Part shown: positions 366 through 51,163 of the stretch, one piece after another | Layout: each line of letters begins with the position of its first letter | How positions within the stretch are numbered: position 1 is the stretch's first letter | IMG/VR virus record: IMGVR_UViG_3300028832_000125 | Source of the DNA: an uncultured virus (IMG/VR IMGVR_UViG_3300028832_000125) | Taxonomy: Duplodnaviria; Heunggongvirae; Uroviricota; Caudoviricetes | DNA: 64,000 nucleotides | Strand: one strand, 5' to 3' | The notes under the pieces: generated by a model | Told to the model about the DNA's origin: nothing | Databases searched by the model: none | The model's input: the letters and a program-made list of their open reading frames with translations, nothing else | Program-made: the position numbers and the translations under genes

Positions 366-451
366 TTATTCCAATGCGCAATGGGAAAAGGGCACAAAAG
401 ATGTGCTAAGAGCAATGATTTAACAATTTTAATTAGTTTAATTAGAAACGT

Positions 452-4574: not shown

Positions 4575-4690
4575 GTTAAATAATTTTAATATACAGAACT
4601 TTTCTTGTTTATCTGTACAGAAATACAGAAATTATTCTTACCTTTGCAGTGGAATATTAAATATGTCAGTGCAAAAGTAATTAAAATTAG
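4575..4690. promoter_or_regulatory. CI/Cro switch with opposed promoters and TACAGA-type operator repeats
   Basis: TACCTTTG (+, 4639), CAAAAGTA (- strand -7 box, 4672), TCTGTACAGA at 4612. Confidence 0.75.
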
Positions 4691-4694
4691 TCAA

Positions 4695-4934
4695 ATGGCA
4701 AATAAAAAATTGGAAAATCCGCAAAAAATGACCCTCAAGGGCTATTATCAGAATCTTCCAGATGCCACGCATCCGAAGACTGAGTTTGTGAATCGCATCA
4801 TGGTCGAGTGCGGAGTTTCGTTCACCACTGCCAGAAACTGGGTGGTAGGGATAACGAAGCCGTTCAAGCCTGAGCACGTCCAGAAGTTGTCGGAAATGAC
4901 AGGTATTCCCGCTGATGAGTTATGGAGCAATTAG
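4695..4934 (+). CDS. Cro-like HTH protein
   Basis: Short HTH (CGVSFTTARNW...LSEMTGIPADELW) divergent from the repressor. Confidence 0.8.
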   Translation: MANKKLENPQKMTLKGYYQNLPDATHPKTEFVNRIMVECGVSFTTARNWVVGITKPFKPEHVQKLSEMTGIPADELWSN

Positions 4935-5473: not shown

Positions 5474-5506
5474 ATTATATGTTTCACTTATTAAACACTA
5501 AGAGCA

Positions 5507-6457
5507 ATGGGATTGATTAAGAAAAGTAACGAAATCGCTATTCAGCGAAATGTGAAGATGATGGTTTACGGCCAGGCAGGTATGGGTAAGACTACCCTCG
5601 CCCTCTCTGCGCCCAACCCTCTGTTGCTTGACTTCGACAACGGAGTTAAGCGAGTGAACAACGCGCATCTGGGAGATAACGTTGGTATCGTCCAGATTTC
5701 CAACTGGCAGGAGGTCGTGACTCTGCTCACCACTGAGGCGGCAGAACTTGCGCCCTTCGGAACTATCGTTGTTGATACCATCGGTAAGATGATGGACTTC
5801 ATCATCACATACCGTTGCGGTGGTCGCAATCCTCGCATGCAGGACTGGGGAACCATCAACAGTGATTTCAAGTGGTTTGTGGGTGCTCTCTCCAATCTGG
5901 GAAAGCACATCATCTTCGTGGCACACAGGGACACCAGAAAGGAGGGTGATGATACCGTCTTCGTTCCGGCCCTGCGTGAGAAGTCGTACAACTCCATCGT
6001 GACGGAGTTAGACCTTCTGGGCTATCTGGAAATGAAGAATGAGAACGGACTGCAGAAGCGTTCCATCACATTCGACCCCACCTCCCGCAATGACGGTAAG
6101 AACACCTGTCAACTGCCTGGAGTGATGTTCATCCAGAACATTCTCGACCAGAACGGACAGCCTACTGGAGCCAATGACTTCATCGAGAAGCAAATCATCG
6201 CCAAGTACCAGGGTATGATAGCAGTCAAGGAAAAGGCTGCACAGGATTACCAGAAGGCACTTGAAGAGATTAAGATGGGAGTGGAGCAGATTACCGATGC
6301 ACAGGGAGCCAACCACTTCATCGCTCATATCAAGGATTATGCGAACCTCGGTAACAGCATCATCATCTTCGCAAGAGACCTGTTCAGTAAGAAGGCCAAG
6401 GCCCTCAACTTGAAGTATAACAAGGAGTCAAAGCAGTACGAGGATGCAGCAGCTTAA
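5507..6457 (+). CDS. AAA ATPase, Sak4-like recombination protein
   Basis: Walker A GQAGMGKT, Walker B IVVD; located in recombination module. Confidence 0.8.
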   Translation: MGLIKKSNEIAIQRNVKMMVYGQAGMGKTTLALSAPNPLLLDFDNGVKRVNNAHLGDNVGIVQISNWQEVVTLLTTEAAELAPFGTIVVDTIGKMMDFIITYRCGGRNPRMQDWGTINSDFKWFVGALSNLGKHIIFVAHRDTRKEGDDTVFVPALREKSYNSIVTELDLLGYLEMKNENGLQKRSITFDPTSRNDGKNTCQLPGVMFIQNILDQNGQPTGANDFIEKQIIAKYQGMIAVKEKAAQDYQKALEEIKMGVEQITDAQGANHFIAHIKDYANLGNSIIIFARDLFSKKAKALNLKYNKESKQYEDAAA

Positions 6458-10312: not shown

Positions 10313-10401
10313 ATGAGACAGGCCGTTGGTGGCACATTCATACGATTAATAAAAACTAAGGCTCACCAACGGCCATCTTTTTCAAGAAAGCACTAAGAGC
10401 A

Positions 10402-11580
10402 ATGAAATATCAATTAAGAGACTATCAGCAGAACGCCAGTAATGCAGCACTGAGGGCATTCAACGCTACGGGTGCAAGGAACGGCTTGCTCATCCTGCCT
10501 ACGGGTGCAGGAAAGAGCCTCGTTATTGCAGACATAGCATCCAAGTTGAACGGCCCGCTGTTGATCCTGCAACCGTCAAAGGAGATTCTGGAACAGAACT
10601 TCGCCAAGTTGCAGAGTTACGGCTGTTGGGACGCTTCCATCTATTCCGCTTCCGTTGGTCGCAAAGACATAAACAGAATCACCTTTGCAACCATCGGCAG
10701 CGTCATGAACCACATGGATGAGTTCATGCACTTCAAGAATGTCATGATAGATGAGTGTCACGGAGTCAACAGCAAGGCAGGGCAGTACAAGGAGTTTATC
10801 GAGGCTACTGAGCGCAGGGTGATAGGTCTTACCGCCACTCCCTACAGACTGGTATCATACAGGGGTGGCAGTATGTTGAAGTTCCTCACCAGAACGAAAC
10901 CGCGCATATTCTCAGATGTCCTGTACTACTGCCAGATTTCCGATTTACTCGGCAAGGGCTATCTGGCAAACCTCAGATACTTCGACTGTACCAAACTCGA
11001 CATGAGCAGGGTGAAGTCAAACTCCACTGGTGCGGACTTCGATGACAAGTCACTCAAAGAAGAGTACAAGCGTATCGGCTTCGGTGACCAGTTGTCATCT
11101 ACTACCATGAGGGTGTTGAAGCCGAAGAGCGGCATACCCAGAAAGGGCGTGTTGGTGTTCACCCGGTTCATCGAAGAGGCCGACACTCTGGCGATGAGGC
11201 TTAGGTCTGTAGGCATCAGAGCGGCCATCGTCACGGGTGATACTCCTAAGAGAGAGCGTGAGGATATTCTGGAAGACTTCAAGGCCGGACGTATAAAGGT
11301 TGTTGCCAATGTCGGGACGCTGACTACAGGCTTCGACTATCCAGAATTAGATACGGTGATACTCGGCAGGCCCACGAAGTCACTGGCCCTGTACTACCAG
11401 ATGGTAGGCCGTGCCATCCGTCCGTGCAAGGGCAAGGATGGTTGGGTAATAGACCTCGGAGGGACATACAAGGTCTTCGGTAACGTGGCCAACCTCAAAA
11501 TAGGTCTGGAACCACTCAGCACCGCAAAGTGGTGCATTTCATCAAACGGAAAGCAATTAACAAACGTAATGTTCAGATAA
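10402..11580 (+). CDS. superfamily 2 DEAD/DEAH helicase
   Basis: PTGAGKS, DECH, TAT and QMVGRAIR motifs. Confidence 0.92.
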   Translation: MKYQLRDYQQNASNAALRAFNATGARNGLLILPTGAGKSLVIADIASKLNGPLLILQPSKEILEQNFAKLQSYGCWDASIYSASVGRKDINRITFATIGSVMNHMDEFMHFKNVMIDECHGVNSKAGQYKEFIEATERRVIGLTATPYRLVSYRGGSMLKFLTRTKPRIFSDVLYYCQISDLLGKGYLANLRYFDCTKLDMSRVKSNSTGADFDDKSLKEEYKRIGFGDQLSSTTMRVLKPKSGIPRKGVLVFTRFIEEADTLAMRLRSVGIRAAIVTGDTPKREREDILEDFKAGRIKVVANVGTLTTGFDYPELDTVILGRPTKSLALYYQMVGRAIRPCKGKDGWVIDLGGTYKVFGNVANLKIGLEPLSTAKWCISSNGKQLTNVMFR

Positions 11581-13710: not shown

Positions 13711-13752
13711 GGCTAAATATATTTGTTATTCAAATAATTTTAACTACTTTTG
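13711..13752 (+). promoter_or_regulatory. class B promoter with TATTTG-N5-CAAATA palindrome
   Basis: TATTTGTTATTCAAATA at 13720; -7 box TACTTTTG at 13745. Confidence 0.75.
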
Positions 13753-13875
13753 TAGCCAGAAAGCAATCTGAAACGTGGAACTTTCAGACAACAGAATACT
13801 GCCCTATTCAGTATCACTCCAGTTCCACCTGTGCAAACAGCGGAGTGAGAACGATAGGGCAACTTTTTAGAAGAT

Positions 13876-14577
13876 ATGTCAGACGGATGGGTTAAGATAC
13901 ATCGGAAATTCCTTGATTGGGAATGGTACGACAAATCGGAAATGGTGCACCTGTTTCTCCATTTGTTGCTGAACGCCTGCACCTCAGACAGGCGATGGCA
14001 AGGCATACCTATCAGAAGAGGTCAGGTAATCACTGGCCGCAGGAAAATCAGCGAGGCTACTGGCCTCAGCGAACAGAAGATAAGAACCTGCATGCAAAGG
14101 TTGATTGAATCTGGCGAAATTGAGGTGGAACCAACCAACAAGTTTTCTATAGTAACTATCTGTAAATACGAAAGTTACCAAGACTGCCAAAATGAAAGTA
14201 ACCAACAAACAACCAATGAGGAACCAACGGCAAGCCCTACGGAGCCCATAAAGCCTAAGAAGACCAAAGAGGAAATAAAGGCAGAGACTGACAGACGCAT
14301 GAAGGAGTTCTATAACTCCCTTATCCCATACGTTCAGACTTACGGCAAGGAAATGGTGAGGGAGTTCTATGACTACTGGAGTGAGGTGAATAAGTCCGGC
14401 AGTAAGATGAAGTGGGAGCAGGAGCCTACATGGGTACTGGATAAGAGACTGGCCAGATGGTCAAGACACGATAAAAAGTATAAGAGCAATGATACAGACG
14501 GTAGCAGAAATTCTACAGCAGAAACAAGAGCACAGGACGCAGCAAGCGTCATTGCCAGCCTTGCGGCAGAAGAGTAA
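13876..14577 (+). CDS. phage replication initiator (N-terminal wHTH)
   Basis: GWVKIHRKFLDWEWY...RGQVITGRRKIS; C-terminal FYDYWSE domain. Confidence 0.8.
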   Translation: MSDGWVKIHRKFLDWEWYDKSEMVHLFLHLLLNACTSDRRWQGIPIRRGQVITGRRKISEATGLSEQKIRTCMQRLIESGEIEVEPTNKFSIVTICKYESYQDCQNESNQQTTNEEPTASPTEPIKPKKTKEEIKAETDRRMKEFYNSLIPYVQTYGKEMVREFYDYWSEVNKSGSKMKWEQEPTWVLDKRLARWSRHDKKYKSNDTDGSRNSTAETRAQDAASVIASLAAEE

Positions 14578-15316: not shown

Positions 15317-15326
15317 TATAAGAGCA

Positions 15327-15596
15327 ATGAAACCAGAGAAGAAACGATTACCGATGACCCTGCAAGACAAAGTTGAGTGGTACAAGGCCATCTACCAGAA
15401 ACAGGGCAGGAAGCCCGACACTGGCACGGTCTTCATGGATGCCTATATGCAGGCCATGGATGACGTACAGGCAGCGTTGAACTGGCGTGATGAGGGCAAG
15501 TCAGGCACATACTACTCAGACATCATCCAGAAAGTCCAGAGTCTCGTTGTCGAGCGGAACCGTCAGAATAAAGCATGGAGGGAGCAGCATGGATAG
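15327..15596 (+). CDS. hypothetical protein
   Basis: AAGAGCA-ATG start. Confidence 0.65.
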   Translation: MKPEKKRLPMTLQDKVEWYKAIYQKQGRKPDTGTVFMDAYMQAMDDVQAALNWRDEGKSGTYYSDIIQKVQSLVVERNRQNKAWREQHG

Positions 15597-18453: not shown

Positions 18454-18553
18454 GGTTAAAAAGAGTTGGTGAGGTGAAAAAAGAGTCCTTTTCGTTTTGT
18501 AATTTCAGTAATTTTTTGTAACTTTGCAGTATAGAATTTGAATAAGAGCAATG
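18454..18553 (+). promoter_or_regulatory. class A promoter cassette 1
   Basis: GTTAAA..GAGTT...TTTTG..TTCAG..TTTTTTGTAACTTTGCAGTA...AAGAGCAATG. Confidence 0.8.
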
Positions 18554-18934: not shown

Positions 18935-19185
18935 TATGGGACAGACCAAGCGTAAGAACGTCACCAGAATCCGGCTCACGGGCATCTTCACCGACTGGCA
19001 GGGTAAGATGAGGGAGCGGTGGATGAATGAGACCCTGCTACTCAGAACTGCCAGGAAGGTAGGCGATGAGGAAAATGTCAATAACTACGTCCTGGGCCTG
19101 CTGAACAGAGCGCAAGACACAGGGCAAATCACCTTCGAGAAAGTCAAGTAAGTTACAGAGCAATGAAACCAAAAGAAATTAGAAT

Positions 19186-19620
19186 ATGTTTTCGAGTAAT
19201 CAAGTATTAAGGATTTCTGGCAGTTTTAGCCAGTTGGAGCACGCCCTTCAATTTGCTTTGGATTATTCCGGCAACACCAAGAATATGACAAAGGCAGAGC
19301 GAGACAGGGGGTGTAAACTTCTGTTCCAGATAACGGAAGACGGGAAGTATTGTATTGGTTGGGGGTTTGGTGGCGTTCCAGAAGGATGGAATGAGTACCA
19401 GTTTGACTTTGAGACCCCAATCGTGTCACAGATAATCGTTCAGCACATCAAGAAACAGCCAAGGCCAGAAAGTGAATATGACTGGTCTGACGGCGGCACC
19501 TCAGACGGATTCTTGATGAGTTCCATCCGTGACTGTTCTCTGGATGAAAGAAAAGGCATCAAATCGCCTTTCTTCTGTATTGTGGTATTTGAGCCGTTCT
19601 GTTGTTTTTATGCCAAATGA
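19186..19620 (+). CDS. hypothetical protein
   Basis: ORF. Confidence 0.7.
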   Translation: MFSSNQVLRISGSFSQLEHALQFALDYSGNTKNMTKAERDRGCKLLFQITEDGKYCIGWGFGGVPEGWNEYQFDFETPIVSQIIVQHIKKQPRPESEYDWSDGGTSDGFLMSSIRDCSLDERKGIKSPFFCIVVFEPFCCFYAK

Positions 19621-21095: not shown

Positions 21096-21710
21096 ATGTT
21101 TATATTAGGAAGAGGCAAAGCCAGAAACAGGAAGACGGGCGAAACCGTCTATGTTGTCAGCCACAACGGAGAGGGTGACAAACGGAGAAAGACGGATTGG
21201 GTCAGTTACATTGACGCTAATCTGGAAGAGCACGAAATGGTCAAAGGGCTTAACGTCTATTGGGATTTCGAGGAAGTCAGCAACTATGAGGAAAGAGAGA
21301 AGGTCAGGGCCTATGAGACGCACCTGTGCATATTCTCTGGAATGGCCATGCAGTCGCTCATGCGTACAAAGAGAATCGAGGATTTGAATGAGGAAGGTTG
21401 TGTTGATTTCCTTACCAATCTGTCTATCGACTACGCCAAGGAACTTTGTGCCAAACTGGATAAGGTTGATTTGGAAGAGTTGATGAATCCGAAGCAGGAG
21501 CCGGAACCAGAGGAAAAGTATGAAGTTGCCATTGGCGAGACGGTGGAGTTCCAAGGTGAGCGTTTCCATTCCACGGAAGTAGCGGATAATGAAGACTGTA
21601 CTGGCTGCGCGTTCAAAGAGATTGAAGACTGCAAATTCTGCGGCTATTGCTACAAAGACAATCGCAGTGACGGTAAGTGTGTCATCTTCGTGAAAGGAGG
21701 TAGCAAATGA
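21096..21710 (+). CDS. hypothetical protein with Cys-rich C-terminus
   Basis: ORF. Confidence 0.65.
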   Translation: MFILGRGKARNRKTGETVYVVSHNGEGDKRRKTDWVSYIDANLEEHEMVKGLNVYWDFEEVSNYEEREKVRAYETHLCIFSGMAMQSLMRTKRIEDLNEEGCVDFLTNLSIDYAKELCAKLDKVDLEELMNPKQEPEPEEKYEVAIGETVEFQGERFHSTEVADNEDCTGCAFKEIEDCKFCGYCYKDNRSDGKCVIFVKGGSK

Positions 21711-22084
21711 AGATTCTACCATACGAGACTATCAGCCTGTCAGCAAACAGGCCAGACAGGTGTATCACTCCATGCCCTTACGGTCAGAAGCATCCAAGCG
21801 GCAATCCTATCAAGGTGGGTTCTGGAGGCTGTCGTATATGTCCGCATTTCGGTGACCTCATAGACTATCCCAAACAGGTGAAGTGCAACCATCCAGACAC
21901 AGAGAAAGGAGGCGAGTGATGGAAGAGCAGGTAATTGAGTTGTTCGGCATGAAGTTGAAGATTGTCGAAGATGATGGTTCAAAGTGTGACGGTTGCGCAC
22001 TGGAATCTCTGGACGTTTGCCATCCGCAGGCGTGTGCGACAACCAAAGGTGAGTACAATAGACATTTCGTAAGAATTGAAGGAT

Positions 22085-22423
22085 ATGCCGATAAAGCCAG
22101 AAAATAAGAAGCGTTACCCTGCCAACTGGAAGCAGATACGTGCATCCATACTGGAGAGGGCACATAACCGTTGCGAGTTCTGCGGCAAGCAGAATCACAC
22201 CTACTTCTGGAATGAGAAAACGCACAAGATGGTTATGGTGGTGCTTACCATAGCCCACCTTGACCATACGCCAGAGAACTGTGACCCAGAGAATCTGCGT
22301 GCCCTCTGCCAAGCCTGCCACAACAGGTATGATGCAAAGCACAGGGCTGAAACGCGCTCGTTTGCGAGGGCTTACCAGAAGGATGCGGAAGAGGCAAGGC
22401 AGAAGGGAGGTGAACTATGGTAG
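22085..22423 (+). CDS. HNH endonuclease
   Basis: CEFCG...LTIAHLDH.PEN...NLRALCQACHNRYD. Confidence 0.85.
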   Translation: MPIKPENKKRYPANWKQIRASILERAHNRCEFCGKQNHTYFWNEKTHKMVMVVLTIAHLDHTPENCDPENLRALCQACHNRYDAKHRAETRSFARAYQKDAEEARQKGGELW

Positions 22424-24515: not shown

Positions 24516-24562
24516 CAAGGTCACGGGGTGGCCAACCACCACCCCACCTAAATATAAGAGCA

Positions 24563-24919
24563 ATGAAAACGATTAAGGAAACGAAAGCCTACCAGATGGC
24601 AGTTGAGAATCTGGAAAACGAGAGTTACGACCTACAGGACAGTTTCAAGAATGAGGCCATAGCCCTTGCAGTTGCAGACCTTGAAGCGAAGTTGCACAGT
24701 AACGCTAACAATGCCACCGTGCAGATGGGTGACTTCATCATCAAGGCCAGAAGTACCCGCACCGCCTCCTTCGTGAGCGTGTCACATGAAGACTGCGGCA
24801 CAGGAGTTTCGCGCTCCCTCGCCTCTCTGGTTGACGGCAAGAGACCCGCCACCGATGATGAGATTAAGAACCTCGTTGAAATGGTCAATGAAGCCTGGTA
24901 TCACTGCGTAAACGATTAG
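24563..24919 (+). CDS. hypothetical protein
   Basis: AAGAGCA-ATG start. Confidence 0.7.
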   Translation: MKTIKETKAYQMAVENLENESYDLQDSFKNEAIALAVADLEAKLHSNANNATVQMGDFIIKARSTRTASFVSVSHEDCGTGVSRSLASLVDGKRPATDDEIKNLVEMVNEAWYHCVND

Positions 24920-25203: not shown

Positions 25204-25215
25204 AAATCAAGAGCA

Positions 25216-25644
25216 ATGAAAATCGTCAATCAAGCATTATTAAAAGTCGCAGAAGAGGTAGCCAGACGTTTCGGCTACATCGAAGTCGAGCATTACACCC
25301 AGAATCTGATGAAGTCCGATTTTTGGGGTACATCGTTCTATGCCACAAAGCAGTATGTGGAATCTGAATATAAGGAGATACCCACCTTTGAGGTAGTGAA
25401 GTATATCCTGCCTGTCTTCGAGGATGAGAAGGATGAGAATAAGAGCCGTCCACGTATCGAGTTGAGGGTGCGCTTCCGTAACCCGCGCATCGGCATCTAT
25501 TTCCCAGAAGGTGGATATGTCGGTCTGGAATATTCACCAGAGGGCGAGTTCAAGGAGGCCCAGATATTCGATGAGAGAGGGTATGACTACCTGCCTGTCA
25601 TCAAAGAGAAGGTTGCTCACTGGATTAACAAGTTGAAGTCATGA
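25216..25644 (+). CDS. hypothetical protein
   Basis: AAGAGCA-ATG start. Confidence 0.7.
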   Translation: MKIVNQALLKVAEEVARRFGYIEVEHYTQNLMKSDFWGTSFYATKQYVESEYKEIPTFEVVKYILPVFEDEKDENKSRPRIELRVRFRNPRIGIYFPEGGYVGLEYSPEGEFKEAQIFDERGYDYLPVIKEKVAHWINKLKS

Positions 25645-30666: not shown

Positions 30667-30757
30667 CCGACCATTTTTAAGTTAAAATATTTGTGTAACT
30701 CGCTAAAAATGACTAACTTTACCGTTGTAAACAAATGAACTTTTAATACAAAGAGCA

Positions 30758-31297
30758 ATGGAATTAAGAACAGTCAAAGGTTACGATTTTTATGAAGTAT
30801 CATCGGCAATGCAGAAGGCGATTCGCAGGGCAGATGTGAAGACAGCGGGTTATTTTGCTTTGGAGTTGTGGCATTCCGGCTATCGTGATTACGTCTGGAA
30901 AAGACTCTTCACAATCAGCGCAGAAGACTGCTACGGCCTCATCACCAAAGAGATTGAGGCGTTGTGGCAGGGCCATGAGTTAGTTAATAAGAAGCAGCCT
31001 GTTCCCAAAGGGAGGGTGTTCGTCAGTAAGGCTGTCCTGCTTCTGTGCGAGTGTCGCAAGTGCCGTGACGCAGACCATTTGCAGAACTTCGTCTATGACA
31101 AGAGCAAGGTTGAAAACATTGACCAGTGGCTCGAAGATGCCAGGAACTATCCTATCCCCATCCCTCAGTACACGTATGACGTGCACACCAGAAAGGGCAA
31201 GATGATGGGTCGCACAAAAGACCAGTTCTTCAGAGAAGAGTTTGATTCGCTGAAACCACGGGAGCCGGGTTTGTTTGATGATTTCTTCAAAACATAA
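30758..31297 (+). CDS. stand-alone MgsA/RarA C-terminal-like helical protein
   Basis: SAMQKAIRRAD...WKRLFTISAED...YDVHT. Confidence 0.65.
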   Translation: MELRTVKGYDFYEVSSAMQKAIRRADVKTAGYFALELWHSGYRDYVWKRLFTISAEDCYGLITKEIEALWQGHELVNKKQPVPKGRVFVSKAVLLLCECRKCRDADHLQNFVYDKSKVENIDQWLEDARNYPIPIPQYTYDVHTRKGKMMGRTKDQFFREEFDSLKPREPGLFDDFFKT

Positions 31298-32074: not shown

Positions 32075-32435
32075 AGAAGGGAGTCCGAATTTCAGCCGGA
32101 AGCAGAAGCAGTTCCTCAAAGCGTTGTCTGGCGTGGCCGGGAATGTCACTGCCGCCTGCAAGTCTGCCAACGTGTCGAGGCAGACGTACTACAACTGGCT
32201 AAAGGATGATGACTTCGCAACAGCCGTTGATGAGGTGAACGAGGCTAACCTTGACTATGCCGAAAGCAAGTTGCAGGCTCTGATAAGGCAGGAGAATCCG
32301 ACAGCCATCATCTTTTACTTGAAGACGAAGGGTAAGAAGCGTGGGTATGTGGAGCGCATCGAGAATGAAGTTGACCTCACGGCGTTTGAAAAGCTGTTGA
32401 TGGATGATGAAGACGATGACGAAGACGATGAATGA
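32058..32435 (+). CDS. terS: terminase small subunit
   Basis: HTH (GNVTAACKSANVSRQTYYNW), IIFYLKTKGKKRGY; directly upstream of TerL. Confidence 0.8.
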   Translation: MAEQNKEGSPNFSRKQKQFLKALSGVAGNVTAACKSANVSRQTYYNWLKDDDFATAVDEVNEANLDYAESKLQALIRQENPTAIIFYLKTKGKKRGYVERIENEVDLTAFEKLLMDDEDDDEDDE

Positions 32436-33940
32436 TTGACCGCAAGAAAGGACGTAAGAAACTGAAAAGGTGGCGTGCCGACTGGAATCTGTTTGCCAAG
32501 GAGGTGTTGGGTGCCAAACTCGATAAGGAGCAGCAGGCAATACTATCATCCATACAGAAGAATCCGATGACGGCAGTAGCCAGTGGGACGGCAAGGGGCA
32601 AGGATTTCGTTGCAGCCTGTGCCGCCATGTGTTTCATGTACCTTACGCCCAGATTCAAAGACGGCAACCTCATTTCCAATACTAAGATAGCGATGACGGC
32701 TCCAACTGGCCGACAGGTGAAGGATATTATGATTCCAGAGGTGGCCCGCCAGTTCCGTAACGCAAAGGTTCTGCCAGGACGCTTGCTGTCAAACGGCATC
32801 CGTACCCGCTATGACGAATGGTACTTGACGGGCTTCAAGTCTTCCAATGACAATACTGAGGCGTGGTCTGGATTCCATGCCGTCAACACTATGTTTATCG
32901 TTACTGAGGCTTCTGGTATCACTGAGAGTACGTTTAATGCGATTGAGGGTAACTTGCAGGGTAACTCTCGGCTGCTGATAGTGTTTAACCCAAACATCAC
33001 AACGGGGTACGCGGCCAAGGCCATGAAGTCACCGCGATTCAAGAAATTCAGACTGAACTCCCTTAATGCCGAGAACGTGGTCAGCAAGCGCAACGTAATC
33101 CCCGGACAGGTCGATTATGAGTGGGTGAAGGATAAGGTTGAGAACTGGGCGCATCCCATACCCATAGAAGAGTTTGACGAAGGTGAGGGTGATTTCCACT
33201 GGGAGGGAAAGACGTACAGGCCAAACGACCTGTTCCGTGTCAAGGTTCTGGGAATGTTCCCGAAAGCCTCAGAGGATATGCTTATCCCGTATGAGTGGAT
33301 AGAGTTGGCTAACCAGAGGTGGGAAGAGTTGCATGAGAATAACTTTGTCAGTAAGAAGACACCCAGAGTCGGTGTTGATGTCGCAGGCATGGGACGTGAT
33401 AACAGCGTACTGCTTCCGAGGTACGGCAACTGGGTTCCAGAGATAAAGGTACACCAGTCCGGCGGCAAGGCCGACCACATGCACGTAGTCGGCATGACCG
33501 TGCCGTATCTCGACAAGGGCGGCAAGGCGTTCATTGATACCATCGGAGAGGGTGCGGGTGTTTACTCGCGTCTCGAGGAACTGGAGTATGATAACGCTTT
33601 CTCCTGCAAGTACTCAGAGGGTGCAAAGAACCTGCATGACATCACGGAGCAGTATTCCTTCGCCAATATGAGGGCGTATCTGTTCTGGTGTGTCCGTGAC
33701 TGGCTCAATCCAAAGAACGGCTATAATGCTGCACTGCCTCCAGATGACGGACTCGCTGAGGAAGCCACTGAGATACACTGGAAGTTTCAGAGTGACGGCA
33801 GGATAATCATAGAGCCGAAGGAAGAGATTAAGAAGAGGCTGAAACGTTCGCCGGACAAATTCGACGCTCTGGCAAACACGTTCTACCCGCATGACTATAG
33901 TGAGTCTGATGATGAAGACCTCGAAAAAGATTTGGTTTAG
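32432..33940 (+). CDS. terL: terminase large subunit
   Basis: SGTARGKD Walker A variant, IVTEAS Walker B, GVDVAGMG nuclease, SPDKFDAL. Confidence 0.9.
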   Translation: MIDRKKGRKKLKRWRADWNLFAKEVLGAKLDKEQQAILSSIQKNPMTAVASGTARGKDFVAACAAMCFMYLTPRFKDGNLISNTKIAMTAPTGRQVKDIMIPEVARQFRNAKVLPGRLLSNGIRTRYDEWYLTGFKSSNDNTEAWSGFHAVNTMFIVTEASGITESTFNAIEGNLQGNSRLLIVFNPNITTGYAAKAMKSPRFKKFRLNSLNAENVVSKRNVIPGQVDYEWVKDKVENWAHPIPIEEFDEGEGDFHWEGKTYRPNDLFRVKVLGMFPKASEDMLIPYEWIELANQRWEELHENNFVSKKTPRVGVDVAGMGRDNSVLLPRYGNWVPEIKVHQSGGKADHMHVVGMTVPYLDKGGKAFIDTIGEGAGVYSRLEELEYDNAFSCKYSEGAKNLHDITEQYSFANMRAYLFWCVRDWLNPKNGYNAALPPDDGLAEEATEIHWKFQSDGRIIIEPKEEIKKRLKRSPDKFDALANTFYPHDYSESDDEDLEKDLV

Positions 33941-33995
33941 AGTGGAAAATCCGGCAATTTTTTGTATTATCAAAAATATTTTGTAATTTTGCACC

Positions 33996-34068
33996 GAAAT
34001 CGTTTCTAATTTTGACGATTTCATTGCTCTTAGTGCATCGGTTCGTGAAGAATAGATGCACCTTTTTT
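33996..34068 (+). ncRNA. candidate antisense small RNA carrying a CAUUGCUCUU seed
   Basis: TTTG-19nt-TAATTTTG promoter; hairpin GAAATCGT/ACGATTTC; seed at 34022-34031; terminator GTGCATC/GATGCAC plus T6. Confidence 0.7.
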
Positions 34069-34073
34069 GTATT

Positions 34074-34179
34074 CGTTAAATAGAGTTGGTCAGGGAAAAA
34101 TAAAGGGTTTTCCGTTTTGATAATTCAGAAAATTTTTGTATCTTTGCAGTACAGAAATCAATTAAATAGAAGAGCAATG
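34074..34179 (+). promoter_or_regulatory. class A promoter cassette 3
   Basis: Repeated block. Confidence 0.8.
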
Positions 34180-34437
34180 AAATCGAGCAAATCACAACTT
34201 CAAAAGAAGTACAATAAGATGGCTTACCAGTATGACCCTTGGAAGCAGCAGATAGTTGTCGAGACTACCAGTGGTGAAATGGTCATCGAGTTAATGACAT
34301 CAGACAGGCAGTTCCACCTTATCAAGGTTGAGCGGCATGACAGCCAGGACATCATCGGCCTGGATGCTATCAATGAGAAAGTCTCATCCATGATTGCCAG
34401 TGGAGAGGTTATCAACGTTTATATTGATTCACTCTAA
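34177..34437 (+). CDS. hypothetical protein
   Basis: AAGAGCA-ATG start. Confidence 0.7.
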   Translation: MKSSKSQLQKKYNKMAYQYDPWKQQIVVETTSGEMVIELMTSDRQFHLIKVERHDSQDIIGLDAINEKVSSMIASGEVINVYIDSL

Positions 34438-34449
34438 ACGCACGGAGCC

Positions 34450-34773
34450 ATGGAGAAAGATATGATTACCCTGCAGGAACTTTACAAGTTCATATGCCAG
34501 TCTGAGGGCATCACCCAGAAGTCACTCAGATTCAAGCGTGTCGGTAAGGGCGGTGCCTGCTGCACCTATTCTGGAAAACGTGTCTATTCCATCAGTATAG
34601 ACCTCGCAAGAATCTGTATCGGTGCTGCATACGCCCTCTGTCATGAGGTAGCCCACCAGATACTCATTGAGAGGGATGGCAACGCCACCCATAACAGGGC
34701 ATTCAAGAAAGAAGAGCAGAGACTGGTGAAAGCATACGCCACCTGCCCTATAGCAAACAAGTTGATATTCTAA
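34450..34773 (+). CDS. SprT-like HExxH metallopeptidase
   Basis: LCHEVAH...HNRAF. Confidence 0.65.
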   Translation: MEKDMITLQELYKFICQSEGITQKSLRFKRVGKGGACCTYSGKRVYSISIDLARICIGAAYALCHEVAHQILIERDGNATHNRAFKKEEQRLVKAYATCPIANKLIF

Positions 34774-34784
34774 ATTCAAGAGCA

Positions 34785-35306
34785 ATGGAAACGAAGGAAA
34801 CGAAAGTCGTAAAGACGAAAACGAAGATGTGGAACGGCAAAGCCTACACCATCAAACTGACTGAGGAAAACGTGGCAGATATGCGCAAGGATGCCGAGGT
34901 CTGTAAGTTGAATGGCCATGACTTCGAGTATTACCTAAACCAGATGTTGACGTTCTGGATGCGCGATGACTGGCCGGAGGTTGCGGCACAGGTGTTTGCC
35001 GAGGCTGATCCTGTTCTGGCAGTCGGCATGGGAGCCACCATGAATCTCTGGAGTGACCGCAGGGCCATGACCATCGTAGAGGTTGTTACACCCAGAAAGG
35101 TTATCGTGCAGGAAAATGAAACGAAGTGTCTGGACTACTACGGTGGCCGCTACGAAGTTCTGGATTCCCTGGCAGAGTACATGAGCAGGCACACGTTCAC
35201 CCTCAGAAAGAATGGAACATGGGTAGAGGAAGGCCAGCCTAAGAAGTTCGGCAGCGTCACTCTCACTGTTGGGTTCCGGCATCATTACATAGACCCGAGT
35301 TTCTGA
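34785..35306 (+). CDS. hypothetical protein
   Basis: AAGAGCA-ATG start; ends Y.DPSF. Confidence 0.75.
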   Translation: METKETKVVKTKTKMWNGKAYTIKLTEENVADMRKDAEVCKLNGHDFEYYLNQMLTFWMRDDWPEVAAQVFAEADPVLAVGMGATMNLWSDRRAMTIVEVVTPRKVIVQENETKCLDYYGGRYEVLDSLAEYMSRHTFTLRKNGTWVEEGQPKKFGSVTLTVGFRHHYIDPSF

Positions 35307-35307
35307 C

Positions 35308-35592
35308 ATGAAGACGTATATTGTTCACCCGGTTGTTGATAGCCATATATGGGTAACCACCAGATGCAAGTCTGGGCGTAAGGAGGTGGAAAGAATATCA
35401 TTCCAGATAGACTGTCCCGGCAAGTGGTTTGATGATGAGTATAATTGTCATGTGGATGGCTGTGACTATCCGTTTGGCACTGTTGATGAGGCTCTGGAAC
35501 ATGGGGCGAAGGTGTTGCAGTTCAATGGGGAGCCGTATAGGTTTGTTCACACAGAAGAGAAGTATAATCCTTATGAGCGTTATGAAGTATAA
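35308..35592 (+). CDS. hypothetical protein
   Basis: Packed ORF. Confidence 0.6.
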   Translation: MKTYIVHPVVDSHIWVTTRCKSGRKEVERISFQIDCPGKWFDDEYNCHVDGCDYPFGTVDEALEHGAKVLQFNGEPYRFVHTEEKYNPYERYEV

Positions 35593-35979: not shown

Positions 35980-36094
35980 GGTTAAATAGAGTTGGCCAGT
36001 GGAAAATAGAGTCTTTTTCGTTTTGATATTTCAGAGAAAAACGCTATCTTTGTAGTACATTTCTGATAATAACAATTTAATGGTAAGAGCAATG
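35980..36094 (+). promoter_or_regulatory. class A promoter cassette 4
   Basis: Repeated block. Confidence 0.75.
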
Positions 36095-37370: not shown

Positions 37371-37476
37371 GGTTAAAAAGAGTTGGTTGGCCAAAAATAG
37401 AGTTCAATCGGTTTTGATGATTCAGAAATTTTTTGTAACTTTGCAGTATAGAAATTTAATAAGAGTAAGAGCAATG
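37371..37476 (+). promoter_or_regulatory. class A promoter cassette 5
   Basis: Repeated block; shares CCCATTGGGTTAAAAAGAGTTGGT with cassette 1. Confidence 0.8.
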
Positions 37477-37776: not shown

Positions 37777-37800
37777 TAACCCTATAAAAAGTTAAGAGCA

Positions 37801-38442
37801 ATGAACACGTATTCAAAATTCTGTCCTAACGTCTTCGTAGCAAAGTGCGAAGAGAGGCATGAGAAAGGTGAGATTATCACCGTAGAAACGAAGTATGGAA
37901 AAGAGAATGAGCACATCGTCCACAATCTGGTTAAGCAGGGTGGCGGTTTCTTCTACTACTCCATCACCAGAGTTGACGGCTACAACTGCCAGGAAAGGGC
38001 CAAGCGCAAGGTTGAGAGGTATGAGCAGGCTGCTGCCAATGCCGACAGACGCGCAGGCGAGTATTTCGACAAGTCCAATAAGGATGCGGGGTTCCTCTCT
38101 CTGGGAGAGCCTATCAAGGTCGGGCATCACAGTGAGCGCAGACACCGAAAGGCCATTGAGGATGCACAGCGCAACACTGGTAAGATGGTCGCTGAAATGG
38201 ATAAGGCTGAGTCATACCGCGAGAAGGCTGACGGATGGGCGCAGCATACTGAGGATATTAACCTGTCGATGCCGGAGAGTATTCAGTATTATGCTGAACT
38301 TCTGGAAAAGGCAAAGGCGTACCACCAAGCCATGAAGGATGGCAAGATAGAGCGTGAGCACGCCTACTCTCTGACCTATGCCAAAAAGGCTGTCAACGAA
38401 GCGCAGAAGAATTACGATATGGCAGTAAGGCTATGGGGTTGA
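37801..38442 (+). CDS. DUF3560-like protein
   Basis: GEPIKVGHHSERRHR motif. Confidence 0.8.
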   Translation: MNTYSKFCPNVFVAKCEERHEKGEIITVETKYGKENEHIVHNLVKQGGGFFYYSITRVDGYNCQERAKRKVERYEQAAANADRRAGEYFDKSNKDAGFLSLGEPIKVGHHSERRHRKAIEDAQRNTGKMVAEMDKAESYREKADGWAQHTEDINLSMPESIQYYAELLEKAKAYHQAMKDGKIEREHAYSLTYAKKAVNEAQKNYDMAVRLWG

Positions 38443-43364: not shown

Positions 43365-43494
43365 CGTTAAATAGAGTTGGTTAAGGCACTGTAGGCTGAA
43401 AATAATTGCTTTTCCGTTTTGATATTTCAGAAATTTTTTATTATCTTTGCAGTATAATAATAAAGATAATAACTTTCTAAATTCAAGAGCAATG
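43365..43494 (+). promoter_or_regulatory. class A promoter cassette 6
   Basis: Repeated block. Confidence 0.8.
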
Positions 43495-44072: not shown

Positions 44073-44182
44073 GTCGCTGAAAATAAATGGTTTTCCGTTT
44101 TGATGATTCAGAAATTTTTTGTAACTTTGTAGTACAATATTAGAAACGATATTTATTCACAATTTAAAAGTTAAGAGCAATG
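44057..44182 (+). promoter_or_regulatory. class A promoter cassette 7
   Basis: Repeated block. Confidence 0.8.
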
Positions 44183-45988: not shown

Positions 45989-46068
45989 CAAATAAGTTCG
46001 TTTTTGTTGCCGTGAGAGGGAATTTGGCACTGAAAAGTGTCATTTTCCCTCAATTTTTGCAAAATTTT

Positions 46069-46110
46069 CGCTAAAATTATTTGTTATTCAAATAGTTTTA
46101 ACTAACTTTG
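46069..46110 (+). promoter_or_regulatory. class B promoter (head operon)
   Basis: TATTTGTTATTCAAATA at 46078; TAACTTTG at 46103. Confidence 0.75.
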
Positions 46111-46114
46111 TGCC

Positions 46115-46230
46115 CGAAAGCGTGTGAAGTTGCACGTTACAGAACTGTTCGGATTCAAACATCATTGCTCTTACGATGTGGTTCTGATGATGGATTGCTC
46201 TGTTTGCCACAAGCACGCAGAGCAATTTTT
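46115..46230 (+). ncRNA. structured leader/sRNA with the seed in a loop and a terminator-like hairpin
   Basis: ACATC-attgctcttac-GATGT stem-loop; ATTGCTCTG/CAGAGCAAT stem plus T run. Confidence 0.6.
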
Positions 46231-46255
46231 CAAAACCAAATTAAAAAGTAAAACA

Positions 46256-47008
46256 ATGAACAGACATTTTAGAAGAGTTCTGGAAGTGCTGAAAACGAGA
46301 AAGGAGATTAAGGCGCTCGGGTTCAGCCGTAAGGAGTTAAAGGGTATCGCCGCCAAAGTTGCCGATAAACTCGAACTCAAAGATGATGCCACTGATGAGG
46401 AAGTCACGGAAGCCATCGATGACGCTGTTGATTCCATCGTTCCGTTCCTCGGTTTCACCCAGACGGTGGCAGACCGCCGACTCCAAGAGTACAAGAATGC
46501 TCATCCTGTCGATGACGATGATGACGATGACGATGACCCCGATGACGAGCCAGACGGCAATGAGGGTGGTAAGAGTCCATCGAAGAAAGGCAAGGTGAAC
46601 AAGAAAGCCAACAAGGATGAAGACCCGATGGCCGCTGCCCTGGCCAAGGCTCTCACTCCGTTTACTGAGACCGTACAGGGTCTGCAGAGACAGATTGCAG
46701 AGTTGAAGGATGGCAAGACTGCTGACAGCAGACTCGCCCGCCTAAAGGAAAAGGTAAAGGACACTGGCAAGTTCGGTGAGCGCACGTTGAAGGCTTTCGC
46801 CCGTATGTCGTTCAAGTCCGATGAGGAATTTGAGGACTACCTTGATGAGGTTGATGAGGAACTGGAGGCAGAGAACCAGGAACGTAAAGACAAAGGTCTG
46901 GAAACTCTCGGAAAGCCTGCCGCCGCTGTCCCCGGCAAACCATCTGGGAATGACGAAGACGGTGAAGTGATGTCGGATGATGAGGTCAAGGCTCTGGCCC
47001 ATGGCTAA
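46256..47008 (+). CDS. capsid scaffolding protein
   Basis: Acidic/coiled protein upstream of the capsid genes. Confidence 0.65.
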   Translation: MNRHFRRVLEVLKTRKEIKALGFSRKELKGIAAKVADKLELKDDATDEEVTEAIDDAVDSIVPFLGFTQTVADRRLQEYKNAHPVDDDDDDDDDPDDEPDGNEGGKSPSKKGKVNKKANKDEDPMAAALAKALTPFTETVQGLQRQIAELKDGKTADSRLARLKEKVKDTGKFGERTLKAFARMSFKSDEEFEDYLDEVDEELEAENQERKDKGLETLGKPAAAVPGKPSGNDEDGEVMSDDEVKALAHG

Positions 47009-51086: not shown

Positions 51087-51159
51087 TCTCGGTTAACTCA
51101 GTTGGCAGAGTGCCGCTTATCATAAGCGGAAGTCACGGGTTCGAGTCCCGTACCGAGAG
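51087..51159 (+). tRNA. tRNA-like gene with central UCA in a non-canonical anticodon loop
   Basis: TCTCGGT/ACCGAGA acceptor, ACTC/GAGT D arm, CCGCT-TATCATA-AGCGG, ACGGG-TTCGAGT-CCCGT. Confidence 0.75.
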
Positions 51160-51163
51160 CAAG

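What the first reader, a model, noticed from the sequence alone, without database searches (positions are those of the whole stretch)
33960..34070. Candidate phage small RNA antisense to a start-codon tag shared by at least 16 phage ORF starts
Seen: between terL and the next cassette lies a complete mini transcription unit. It has a Bacteroidota promoter (TTTG 33961, 19-nt spacer, TAATTTTG 33984), an 8-bp hairpin (GAAATCGT/ACGATTTC), an unpaired ATTGCTCTTA linker, and a terminator (GTGCATC/GATGCAC plus T6). Its core GATTTCATTGCTCTTAGTGC is the reverse complement of the AAGAGCAATG start tag. Pairing extends beyond the tag: 19 nt perfect with the helicase start (GCACTAAGAGCAATGAAAT, 10390-10408), 16 nt at the starts 18551 and 34177, 14 nt at 5507, and about 21 bp with one bulge at 25216. 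Its promoter resembles the class A promoters but has an altered putative operator. Inference: one ~73-nt trans-acting RNA covers the AUG of a whole regulon of recombination, replication and host-takeover genes. It could act as an RNA layer of lysogeny or immunity, or as an early-to-late switch. I do not know of a described phage system with this multi-target start-codon barcode design.
Basis: partly seen in the sequence, partly recalled or inferred. Interest (0 to 1): 0.92.

Follow-up and report, generated by a model that had tools for sequence, protein, structure and literature searches.

The report
Phage small RNA mirrors gene starts
Temperate phages of gut Bacteroidota carry a conserved RNA gene of about 70 bases whose exposed stretch mirrors a short tag on the start codon of many of the phage's own non-structural genes; RNA and tags change together across relatives, so the RNA probably controls their translation, though no transcript has been seen.

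Summary
AAGAGCAATG occurs 18 times (0.18 expected). Sixteen copies are on the gene strand, 15 of them on the ATG of real ORFs. Two are inverted, and each inverted copy sits inside a promoter-to-terminator unit on the + strand: sRNA-1 (33996-34068, just after terL) and a second RNA, sRNA-2 (about 46116-46236), which leads the head operon.

sRNA-1 follows terL in 74 of 79 assessable viral relatives and 12 of 80 Bacteroidota genome loci (Prevotella, Paraprevotella, Bacteroidaceae, Parabacteroides). Both hairpins keep pairing through compensatory changes, and the single-stranded core CAUUGCUC never varies.

Tags cluster in the prophages, not the hosts, and are kept at orthologous non-structural genes (34 of 45 against 5 of 295). 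No structural gene carries one.

Three flanking positions change in step between the RNA and its targets in trans. The clearest case is seed ...CUCAAU with TTGAGCAATG tags (3 of 8 against 1 of 164).

Best reading: trans-acting antisense RNAs that block translation of a tagged early and accessory gene set. No transcript data exist, so direction and timing are inferred.

The closest precedent is the unexplained start-associated sequences of Cluster K mycobacteriophages. It is not in Rfam.

The parts
33961..33991 (+). Promoter of sRNA-1 (TTTG-N19-TAATTTTG, Bacteroidota type)
   Evidence: It is one of 11 matches to TTTG-N19-TAnnTTTG in the window against 0.13 expected. The same layout precedes the RNA in relatives. 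The consensus itself is recalled knowledge.
33996..34068 (+). sRNA-1, predicted transcript of about 72 nt
   Evidence: Fold (z = -4.25). It is conserved after terL in 74 of 79 assessable viral loci and in 12 of 80 genome loci. No Rfam family matches.
33996..34022 (+). 5' hairpin of sRNA-1 (GAAAUCGUU/GACGAUUUC)
   Evidence: Three of its 8 aligned pairs show changes on both sides. Stem variants are GAAATCGT/ACGATTTC, GAAAACAC/GTGTTTTC, GAAACGT/ACGTTTC and AAAATCTC/GAGATTTT.
34019..34032 (+). Seed UUUCAUUGCUCUUA; the exact anti-tag is 34022-34031
   Evidence: It is unvarying in 73 of 80 viral loci. Among 112 scaffold-matched copies, 109 are canonical and the 3 variants are all C to T. Mean unpaired probability is 0.75 over 24 versions.
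34033..34068 (+). Terminator hairpin with a GUGA(A) loop, followed by a U-run
   Evidence: Five of its 12 aligned pairs show changes on both sides.
46080..46110 (+). Promoter of sRNA-2 (class B: TTTGTTATTCAAATAGTTTTAACTAACTTTG)
   Evidence: The same promoter class occurs at 13722 and 29212.
46116..46236 (+). sRNA-2, a terminated leader of the scaffold and capsid operon; anti-tag at 46163-46172
   Evidence: -39.9 kcal/mol, z = -3.3, with the seed in a 22-nt loop. Homologs stand upstream of the scaffold-like gene in 11 genomes. The seed is intact in 8 of the 13 listed copies. The gene ATG at 46256 follows with no room for another promoter.
408..417 (+). Tag in a 5' leader; it opens only ATG-ATT-TAA, upstream of gene 452-670
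   Evidence: 13 nt perfect with sRNA-1; longer if G-U pairs are read by eye.
5500..5509 (+). Tag on the ATG of the Sak4-like ssDNA-annealing protein (5507-6457)
   Evidence: 14 nt perfect. The tag is kept in 6 of 7 orthologs.
10395..10404 (+). Tag on the ATG of the DNA helicase (10402-11580)
   Evidence: 19 nt perfect. The tag is kept in 5 of 8 orthologs.
14482..14491 (+). Tag on the ATG of a 275-aa DUF6633 protein
15320..15329 (+). Tag on the ATG of an 89-aa ORF
18544..18553 (+). Tag on the ATG of a 127-aa ORF, behind a class A promoter
   Evidence: 16 nt perfect.
24556..24565 (+). Tag on the ATG of a 118-aa ORF
25209..25218 (+). Tag on the ATG of a 142-aa ORF
30751..30760 (+). Tag on the ATG of a 179-aa protein (phrog_16866)
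34170..34179 (+). Tag on the ATG of an 86-aa ORF, behind the class A promoter at 34116-34146
   Evidence: 16 nt perfect.
34778..34787 (+). Tag on the ATG of a 173-aa ORF
36085..36094 (+). Tag on the ATG of a 115-aa ORF, behind a class A promoter
37467..37476 (+). Tag on the ATG of a 100-aa ORF, behind a class A promoter
37794..37803 (+). Tag on the ATG of a 213-aa DUF3560 protein (phrog_17519)
   Evidence: The tag is kept in 7 of 7 orthologs.
43485..43494 (+). Tag on the ATG of a 102-aa ORF
44173..44182 (+). Tag on the ATG of a 243-aa ORF, behind a class A promoter

Best explanation
sRNA-1 is a trans-acting base-pairing RNA made by the phage. It starts about 5 nt after its own Bacteroidota-type promoter and carries a protective 5' hairpin. 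It exposes UUUCAUUGCUCUUA and ends at an intrinsic terminator, which is also the only terminator downstream of terL.

The exposed stretch pairs with the tag (U)AAGAGCAAUG(AAA), which covers positions -7 to +3 (often to +7) of the start codon of 15 phage genes here and 5-23 in relatives. The duplex hides the AUG from the 30S subunit, so translation of the tagged set (annealing protein, helicase and many small accessory proteins) is held down together. The longest duplexes (19-25 bp) may also be cut.

A second RNA, sRNA-2, carries the same seed in a loop and forms the terminated leader of the head operon. One anti-tag RNA is therefore tied to the 3' end of the packaging operon and one to the 5' end of the head operon. 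The most likely role is to shut off early and accessory genes once late transcription rises. A second, compatible role is a threshold that silences leaky early messages in the lysogen.

Shown in silico: the RNA gene, its structure, the exposed seed, the restriction of tags to non-structural phage genes, and RNA-target covariation. Inferred: transcription, repression rather than activation, and timing.
For: **RNA gene.**
- The promoter consensus is enriched: 11 matches against 0.13 expected.
- The fold has z = -4.25.
- sRNA-1 follows terL in 73 of 80 viral loci with an exact seed, plus 1 with a C to T variant. One locus ends inside terL.
- The covariance model finds it directly after terL in 12 of 80 genome loci from Prevotella, Paraprevotella, Bacteroidaceae, Parabacteroides and Gallipaludibacter.

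**Structure.**
- 97.3% of cells are paired, against 41-50% when partners are slid.
- 8 of 20 pairs change on both sides.
- 0 of 500 shuffles reach the observed score.

**Seed.**
- 109 of 112 scaffold-matched copies are canonical, and the 3 variants are all C to U, which still pairs with G.
- The 8-nt core is kept in the most distant versions.
- Mean unpaired probability is 0.75.

**Tags belong to the phage.**
- 20 of 25, 14 of 26, 11 of 20 and 11 of 26 genome-wide copies lie inside the prophage in four hosts.
- A relative without either RNA has 0 tags in 52 kb.
- A decayed RNA copy goes with 0 tags in 13.5 kb.

**Tag status is inherited.** Orthologs of tagged genes carry the exact tag in 34 of 45 cases; orthologs of untagged genes do so in 5 of 295. 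No structural gene is tagged.

**Covariation in trans.**
- The base 3' of the seed reads AGUG, AUGUG or GGUG, and the matching tags read CACU, CACAU or CACC. This gives a block-diagonal matrix.
- The base 5' of UUUC is A, U or G, and position +7 of tagged ORFs is T (22/44 against 3/21), A (6/10 against 14/55) or C (5/11 against 8/54). Chi-square p = 0.007.
- In the Parabacteroides faecalis prophage the seed reads ...CUCAAU, and 3 of 8 tags read TTGAGCAATG against 1 of 164 elsewhere. Fisher p = 2.6e-4.

**Energetics.** Cofold gain is -14.8 kcal/mol on average for 15 tagged starts and -4.3 for 84 untagged starts.
Against: - No transcript, 5' end or regulatory effect has been observed.
- The 8-10 nt core never varies, so all covariation comes from the flanks and from a subset of targets, mostly 2-3 sites per genome.
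- The statistical tests are not corrected for relatedness of genomes or for orthologous sites.
- One counter-example: the window's annealing-protein site extends 4 nt with its own sRNA-1 but 7 nt with that of G015p.
- The sRNA-2 seed is deleted, degraded or replaced in 4 of 11 genomes that keep tags (G008, G015p, G011p, G006), so that seed is dispensable there.
- G006 has three tagged starts but no seed-bearing RNA in its 66%-complete record.
- Six of 68 genome loci without sRNA-1 still hold one exact tag each.
- In the Parabacteroides faecalis prophage, 2 of 8 tags keep AAGAG although sRNA-1 no longer pairs there. Part of the tag's conservation may therefore serve translation itself.
- One untagged start scores as well as the tagged ones (19186, -18.9 kcal/mol), through a variant tag on a 15-codon upstream ORF.
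Confidence: 0.72

Rival explanations
1. The RNAs pair with the tags as above, but the outcome is activation or stabilisation. For example, they might open or protect the message, or guide a processing cut. Alternatively their main targets are tagged messages of incoming related phages (cross-immunity by the prophage) rather than the phage's own genes.
For: All the pairing evidence applies equally. The tag is identical across diverged relatives, so a resident prophage's RNA would match an incoming relative. Several of these phages are integrated proviruses.
Against: A duplex that covers the AUG itself gives no obvious route to activation. If the RNAs only harmed invaders, invaders would be expected to lose the tag, yet it is kept at orthologous genes (34 of 45).
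Confidence: 0.12
2. The tag is first of all a translation-initiation signal or the binding site of an RNA-binding protein (a RegA-like design). The two inverted copies are then by-products of cassette recombination that happen to lie in the terL terminator region and in the head-operon leader.
For: - The tag sits at a fixed distance from the ATG, with or without a promoter.
- Variants such as AGGAGCAATG exist.
- Part of the tag stays conserved where sRNA-1 no longer pairs.
- The sRNA-2 seed is lost in 4 of 11 genomes.
Against: This reading does not explain several results:
- The inverted copy is unvarying and unpaired between two covarying hairpins in more than 70 relatives.
- Its flanks change in step with the tag flanks.
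- Tags vanish where the RNA is absent.
Confidence: 0.08
3. The 10-14 bp motif is a DNA site for a sequence-specific DNA-binding protein that is used in both orientations. Lineage-specific flank changes would then reflect changes in that protein's specificity.
For: On DNA, reverse-complement covariation cannot be told apart from one extended site read in two orientations.
Against: - Sites include the ATG and extend into codons 2-3.
- They occur inside operons directly behind stop codons.
- They are almost all in one orientation (16 against 2 here).
- The two inverted copies lie in units whose hairpins keep pairing by compensatory change. That is a constraint on RNA, not on DNA.
Confidence: 0.04
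4. The inverted copy at 34022-34031 marks a small tagged gene on the minus strand, namely the 136-codon ORF 34024-33614 antisense to terL.
For: An ORF opens at that ATG.
Against: - No Bacteroidota promoter consensus lies upstream of it on the minus strand.
- Loop length differs by 1-3 nt among relatives, so the minus-strand frame and peptide are not kept (MKSSKLETIS, MKTQTRSVFG, MKTQKKCFRL).
- The changes keep hairpin pairing rather than codons.
Confidence: 0.02

Closest known systems
Start-associated sequences (SAS/ESAS) of Cluster K mycobacteriophages
   Same: - Both are short asymmetric sequences repeated 11-19 times per genome, within a few nt of start codons and almost always in one orientation.
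- Both are confined to non-structural genes and absent from the host.
- Both are often preceded by a repeated promoter-bearing cassette.
- K1 phages hold a single inverted copy that is not at a gene start.
- The role is stated to be unknown (PMC3203893 passages; PMC11373665 and PMC12699233 passages).
   Different: - The sequence differs (GGGATAGGAGCCC, which contains a Shine-Dalgarno core 3-7 nt before the start). Here the tag includes the ATG and has no properly spaced SD.
- The host phylum differs.
- No antisense partner has been described for SAS. Here a conserved RNA gene and trans covariation supply one.
c4 antisense RNA of phages P1/P7
   Same: Both are small, phage-encoded, trans-acting RNAs that repress synthesis of phage proteins by pairing near the ribosome-binding region. 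[quoted passage not shown]
   Different: - c4 acts on one operon (icd-ant). Here 15 or more scattered genes share a dedicated tag.
- There is no match to the Rfam c4 model at any threshold tried.
- That c4 is processed from a precursor is recalled knowledge and was not tested here.
RegA translational repressor of phage T4 (recalled knowledge)
   Same: Both use one phage factor that turns down translation of many early genes by occupying their start regions.
   Different: RegA is a protein with loose sequence preference. Here the factor is an RNA and the site is an exact tag.
3'UTR-derived sRNAs with their own promoter, and terminated leader RNAs such as lambda 6S (recalled knowledge)
   Same: sRNA-1 shares its terminator with the terL message, and its promoter lies at the end of terL. 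sRNA-2 is a short terminated transcript in front of the late head genes.
   Different: Those enterobacterial RNAs depend on Hfq, which Bacteroidota lack (recalled). Lambda 6S has no known antisense seed.

Membership tests
Trans-encoded base-pairing sRNA (functional class) | Own promoter and intrinsic terminator that bound a short non-coding unit | tested here: met
   TTTG-N19-TAATTTTG at 33961-33991. Hairpin plus U6. The minus-strand ORF is not conserved. The evidence is sequence only.
Trans-encoded base-pairing sRNA (functional class) | Conserved secondary structure supported by compensatory changes | tested here: met
   8 of 20 pairs change on both sides, 97.3% of cells are paired against 41-50% when slid, and 0 of 500 shuffles reach the score.
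Trans-encoded base-pairing sRNA (functional class) | Accessible seed complementary to target start regions, with covariation between seed and targets | tested here: met
   Seed unpaired. 10-19 nt perfect matches. Three covarying flank positions.
Trans-encoded base-pairing sRNA (functional class) | A discrete transcript and a measurable effect on targets | not testable with these tools
c4 antisense RNA (Rfam C4 family) | Match to the family covariance model | tested here: not met
   No hit at gathering score over the whole window, nor at E up to 10 on 33900-34150 and 46050-46270.
Start-associated sequences (SAS) of Cluster K mycobacteriophages | Short asymmetric repeat next to start codons, in one orientation, on non-structural genes, and rare in the host | tested here: met
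   This is an analogy of design only.
Start-associated sequences (SAS) of Cluster K mycobacteriophages | Consensus GGGATAGGAGCCC with an SD core 3-7 nt before the start | tested here: not met
   The tag is AAGAGCAATG and includes the ATG. SD-like AAAGGAGG occurs only before untagged genes.
3'UTR-type sRNA that shares the terminator of the upstream mRNA | No terminator between the upstream stop codon and the sRNA; promoter at or inside the end of the upstream gene | tested here: met
   The terL stop is at 33940 and the promoter starts at 33961. The terminator scan finds none in between. In the L003-type relatives the -33 TTTG overlaps the last terL codons.

The most novel reading that the evidence does not exclude
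A start-codon tag plus a mirror RNA may be a general addressing system for translation in temperate phages, one that arose independently in different groups. In this family, the two mirror RNAs are wired to the end of the packaging operon and to the leader of the head operon. Late transcription would then automatically switch off every tagged early or accessory gene, and a resident prophage would silence incoming relatives that share the tag.

The same logic would explain the start-associated sequences of Cluster K mycobacteriophages, unexplained since 2011. In phage Anaya the single inverted SAS lies in the 10-nt loop of a predicted hairpin, inside a 385-bp gene-free region that has matches in 182 Mycobacterium phage records.
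Probability: 0.3. Interest if true: 0.92.

Novelty: new variant of a known kind. Interest (0 to 1): 0.82.

Why it matters
Antisense RNAs that block translation are known. What has not been described, in the searches I ran, is a phage that marks a whole class of its own genes with one exact start-codon tag and encodes conserved small RNAs to read that tag.

- It would be a simple post-transcriptional way to switch a gene class as a block, in a phylum that lacks Hfq (recalled) and mostly does not use Shine-Dalgarno pairing (recalled).
- The family is common in gut and rumen Prevotella, Bacteroides and Parabacteroides prophages, and cultured lysogens exist, so it can be tested directly.
- It offers a concrete hypothesis for the mycobacteriophage SAS puzzle.
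- It suggests a compact, portable tag-and-RNA pair for controlling many genes in Bacteroidota.

Tried and rejected
- **RNA evidence.** One search for sequencing runs with window:32400-36400. No RNA holder was listed; the three RNA runs offered held next to none of the words.
- **Own genome.** None is held for this window.
- **GenBank phages.** blastn of 32400-35400 gave no match.
- **Rfam.** Only the tRNA at gathering score. Nothing near gathering at E up to 10.
- **Sigma-70 promoter scan**. It does not suit Bacteroidota promoters, and its terminator rule (loop 3-8) missed the branched sRNA-1 terminator. I used it only to show that no other terminator lies after terL.
- **RNA.duplexfold energies**. 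They ignore intramolecular structure and did not discriminate (untagged starts reached -35 kcal/mol). I replaced them with cofold differences.
- **L110/G006.** Its sRNA-2 homolog has another sequence in place of the seed, so I looked to it as a covariation test. It was inconclusive: the record is 66% complete, holds only three tagged starts, and no sRNA-1 was found.
- **Minus-strand ORF reading.** Rejected.
- **Literature.** A search for the motif as letters and for phage sRNAs in Bacteroides gave listings with nothing relevant. One search failed on a term that was too short and was not repeated.
- **Earlier notes of this scan.** Look-ups by place and by sequence returned nothing.
Full report
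**The observation**

After the terL stop (33940; terL = phrog_2, E 3e-27) comes TTTG (33961-33964), a 19-nt spacer and TAATTTTG (33984-33991). This is the Bacteroidota promoter layout, whose consensus I recall from the literature.

Folded as RNA, 33995-34070 gives four parts:
- a 9-bp hairpin at 33996-34022;
- ten free bases, AUUGCUCUUA, at 34023-34032;
- a terminator hairpin at 34033-34061, capped by GUGAA;
- C followed by U6.

The energy is -24.0 kcal/mol, z = -4.25, and 0 of 200 shuffles fold as well.

AAGAGCAATG occurs 18 times against 0.18 expected: 16 on the + strand and 2 on the - strand. Fifteen of the 16 + copies lie on the ATG of ORFs of 86-392 aa. The copy at 408 opens only ATG-ATT-TAA. 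Some tags follow a repeated promoter cassette. Others follow the stop codon of the previous gene directly, so the tag does not depend on a promoter.

**A second unit**

The other inverted copy (46163-46172) also lies in a + strand unit. TTTG at 46080, a 19-nt spacer and TAACTTTG at 46103-46110 are followed by:
- a 5' hairpin (46119-46138);
- the anti-tag in a 22-nt loop;
- a terminator ending in T5 (46226-46230).

This RNA folds at -39.9 kcal/mol with z = -3.3. The scaffold-like gene starts at 46256 with no room for another promoter. This RNA (sRNA-2) is therefore the terminated leader of the head operon, which runs from the scaffold-like gene to the major head protein at 47471 and on to the tail genes.

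The promoter consensus TTTG-N19-TAnnTTTG occurs 11 times against 0.13 expected:
- six 'class A' copies precede tagged genes;
- three 'class B' copies are at 13722, 29212 and 46080;
- sRNA-1 has its own version;
- one copy is on the - strand at 4672-4702, beside a weak HTH protein.

**Relatives**

terL relatives in IMG/VR gave 80 loci at 70-85% amino-acid identity.
- Seventy-three carry the exact anti-tag 55-70 nt after terL.
- L064 has a C to T variant.
- L053 ends inside terL.
- L047, L049, L050, L054 and L055 lack the RNA.

The 24 distinct versions align into two hairpins. On that structure 97.3% of cells are paired, against 41-50% when the partners are slid. Eight of 20 pairs change on both sides, and 0 of 500 shuffles reach the score. 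Stem 1 exists as GAAATCGT/ACGATTTC, GAAAACAC/GTGTTTTC, GAAACGT/ACGTTTC and AAAATCTC/GAGATTTT. Between the hairpins, UUUCAUUGCUCUUA does not change.

A scan that fixed the scaffold and left the seed free found 112 copies. Of these, 109 are canonical and the 3 variants are all C to T, which still pairs with G. In the most distant versions (Parabacteroides faecalis, Gallipaludibacter, an uncultured Bacteroidales) the 8-nt core CATTGCTC is kept. The seed's mean unpaired probability over the 24 versions is 0.75.

A covariance model built from the alignment finds the RNA directly after terL in 12 of 80 genome loci. These are named Prevotella, Paraprevotella, Bacteroidaceae, Parabacteroides, Gallipaludibacter and Bacteroides.

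No Rfam family matches.

**Tags go with the RNA and with the phage**

In whole relatives the tag stands in gene sense 5-23 times, at ORF starts, and the anti-tag RNAs stand once or twice. A few further inverted copies lie in coding sequence without the RNA architecture (G004 18089, G005 5773, G012p 37455, G015p 9651).

In four host genomes, the share of all copies that fall inside the prophage is 20 of 25, 14 of 26, 11 of 20 and 11 of 26. The rest is near the control count.

- G009 (terL 71% identical) has neither RNA and 0 tags in 52 kb.
- L242 has a decayed copy (no promoter, no hairpin 1) and 0 tags in 13.5 kb.
- Among the 80 genome loci, 9 of the 12 with sRNA-1 hold at least one exact tag. 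The other three are two short contigs and L242.
- Six of the 68 loci without sRNA-1 hold one exact tag each.

Orthologs of the window's tagged genes carry the exact tag in 34 of 45 cases, plus 3 with only the core. Orthologs of untagged genes do so in 5 of 295. terL, portal, head and tail genes are never tagged. In that count I kept only same-strand tblastn hits that start within the first 12 residues.

**Covariation in trans**

The core never varies, so the test rests on its flanks.

1. *Base 3' of the seed.*
   - sRNA-1 reads CUCUU-AGUG in the window, G001, G007/8/10 and G011/12/15. There, two tags per genome in the window, G001, G011p, G012p and G015p (one in G008, none in G007 and G010) read CACU-AAGAG; in the window and G001 these are the annealing protein and the helicase.
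   - It reads CUCUU-AUGUG in G002-G005, where one to three tags read CACAU-AAGAG.
   - It reads CUCUU-GGUG in G014p, where three tags read CACC-AAGAG, one of them with 25 nt of perfect match.
   - The matrix of own against foreign RNA is block-diagonal.
2. *Base 5' of UUUC.* It is A, U or G in three lineages. Position +7 of tagged ORFs is enriched for the complement: T in 22/44 against 3/21, A in 6/10 against 14/55, and C in 5/11 against 8/54. Chi-square p = 0.007.
3. *The Parabacteroides faecalis prophage.* sRNA-1 reads ...GCUCAAU and sRNA-2 reads ...GCUCUAAGG. Of 8 tagged ORF starts, 3 read TTGAGCAATG, against 1 of 164 in the other genomes (Fisher p = 2.6e-4). Another 3 read TAGAGCAATG.

These tests ignore relatedness of the genomes. 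There is one counter-example: the window's annealing-protein site matches G015p's RNA flank better than its own.

The cofolding gain with sRNA-1 averages -14.8 kcal/mol for 15 tagged starts and -4.3 for 84 untagged ones. The one strong untagged case holds a variant tag on a 15-codon upstream ORF.

**What it most likely does**

The duplex covers the AUG, so the simplest outcome is a block of 30S binding. The longest duplexes may in addition be cleaved. Both points are inference.

The placement is telling:
- No terminator lies between terL and sRNA-1, so packaging-operon transcripts should also end at the sRNA-1 terminator and carry the anti-tag.
- sRNA-2 is the leader of the head operon.
- The anti-tag RNA should therefore rise with late transcription and turn down the tagged non-structural genes together.
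- Each RNA also has its own consensus promoter, and these phages are temperate (proviruses; a divergent regulator region at 4150-5473). The RNAs may therefore also set a threshold against leaky early messages in the lysogen.

I cannot tell these roles apart from sequence.

The sRNA-2 seed is lost in 4 of 11 genomes (G008 has a 5-nt deletion, G015p and G011p are degraded, G006 is replaced). sRNA-1 is therefore the constant partner.

**Rivals**

- A DNA-binding site read in both orientations would also give reverse-complement covariation. It does not explain the covarying hairpins, the inclusion of the ATG, or sites inside operons.
- A pure translation signal or protein site does not explain the conserved, exposed mirror copy, or the loss of tags where the RNA is missing.
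- A minus-strand ORF is excluded by frame-breaking loop indels.

**Known systems**

The nearest precedent in design is the start-associated sequences of Cluster K mycobacteriophages. These are 13 bp, present in 11-19 copies, placed 3-7 bp before start codons of non-structural genes, in one orientation, and absent from the host. About half are preceded by a repeated promoter-bearing element. K1 phages hold a single inverted copy that is not at a gene start. Their role is stated as unknown in 2011, 2024 and 2025 (passages read in PMC3203893, PMC11373665 and PMC12699233).

The nearest mechanism is the c4 antisense RNA of P1/P7 (passage in PMC8546580). It has one target operon and no model match here.

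T4 RegA, 3'UTR-derived sRNAs and lambda 6S are comparisons from memory.

My literature searches found no description of this family or design. They cover open-access papers and bioRxiv only.

Earlier notes of this scan describe similar mirror RNAs with other tags in other Bacteroidota phages. I did not test them, and they are not independent evidence.

**A side check on Cluster K**

In phage Anaya the inverted SAS (L333 39871-39883) lies in a 385-bp region without annotated genes, between gp96 and gp97. It is predicted to form the 10-nt loop CCUCCUAUCC of a hairpin (z = -4.3). The region has blastn matches in 182 Mycobacterium phage records. In 9 sampled phages the loop is:
- identical in 4;
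- differs by one extra C at its 5' side in 1 (Biglebops);
- clearly altered in 3;
- deleted in 1.

I did not test whether the variants follow their own SAS. This is a lead only.

**Verdict**

The antisense-regulator reading has about as much support as sequence comparison alone can provide. Expression, the direction of control and its timing remain to be measured.

Noticed in passing
window 51087-51160 (+): A phage tRNA with anticodon UCA, which reads UGA; ARAGORN labels it tRNA-SeC. It lies between tail-module genes. The ORFs I listed are open under code 11, so I saw no recoding.
   Followed up: no
window 13722-13872 (+): A class B promoter (TTTGTTATTCAAATAATTTTAACTACTTTTG) is followed by a structured leader of about 115 nt that ends in a T-run (fold -32.6 kcal/mol, z = -3.25). 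It has no anti-tag and may be a third leader or small RNA.
   Followed up: partly
window 46193-46226 (+): In this phage only, the arms of the sRNA-2 terminator are themselves anti-tag-like (GATTGCTCTG) and tag-like (CAGAGCAAT). Relatives have GGTCTGCC...GCAGACC there instead.
   Followed up: partly
window 46119-46138; G002 65169; sRNA-1 terminator loop 34045-34049: A loop motif UGUGAAG(A/U)U recurs. It appears in the 5' hairpin of sRNA-2 in 11 genomes, in a third promoter-proximal hairpin RNA in G002, in a terminator upstream of sRNA-2 in L102-L109 and L111, and as GUGA(A) on the sRNA-1 terminator. It could be a protein-binding or antitermination site in the boxB style; that is speculation.
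   Followed up: no
window 408-423 and 19156-19210: Tags or variant tags also open mini-ORFs: ATG-ATT-TAA before gene 452, and a 15-codon ORF from CAGAGCAATG that overlaps the ATG of gene 19186. Similar ORFs of 3-13 codons carry tags in relatives.
   Followed up: partly
window, for example 21693-21709, 21905-21921, 22403-22419, 659-675: Several untagged genes have Shine-Dalgarno-like AAAGGAGG or AAGGAGG 6-7 nt before the ATG. This is unusual for hosts said not to use SD pairing (recalled).
   Followed up: no
window 4150-4572 (-), 4672-4702 (-), 4922-5473 (+): This is the likely lysis-lysogeny switch region. It holds a weak HTH_3 protein on the minus strand with the window's only minus-strand consensus promoter. 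Facing it is a GerE/LuxR-type regulator with a weak sigma-70 region 4 match, just before the first tagged gene.
   Followed up: partly
L075 5542-5627: In one relative the inner part of the sRNA-1 terminator hairpin is inverted (GCGCCGACTTTCACAAGCCAGCGC against GCGCTGGCTTGTGAAAGTCGGCGC). The stem is kept but the loop is flipped.
   Followed up: no
L333 (Mycobacterium phage Anaya) 39683-40067: The single inverted start-associated sequence of this Cluster K phage lies in the predicted 10-nt loop of a hairpin, in a 385-bp region between gp96 and gp97 that has no annotated gene in Anaya. The region has matches in 182 Mycobacterium phage records. The loop is altered or deleted in 4 of 9 sampled relatives.
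   Followed up: partly
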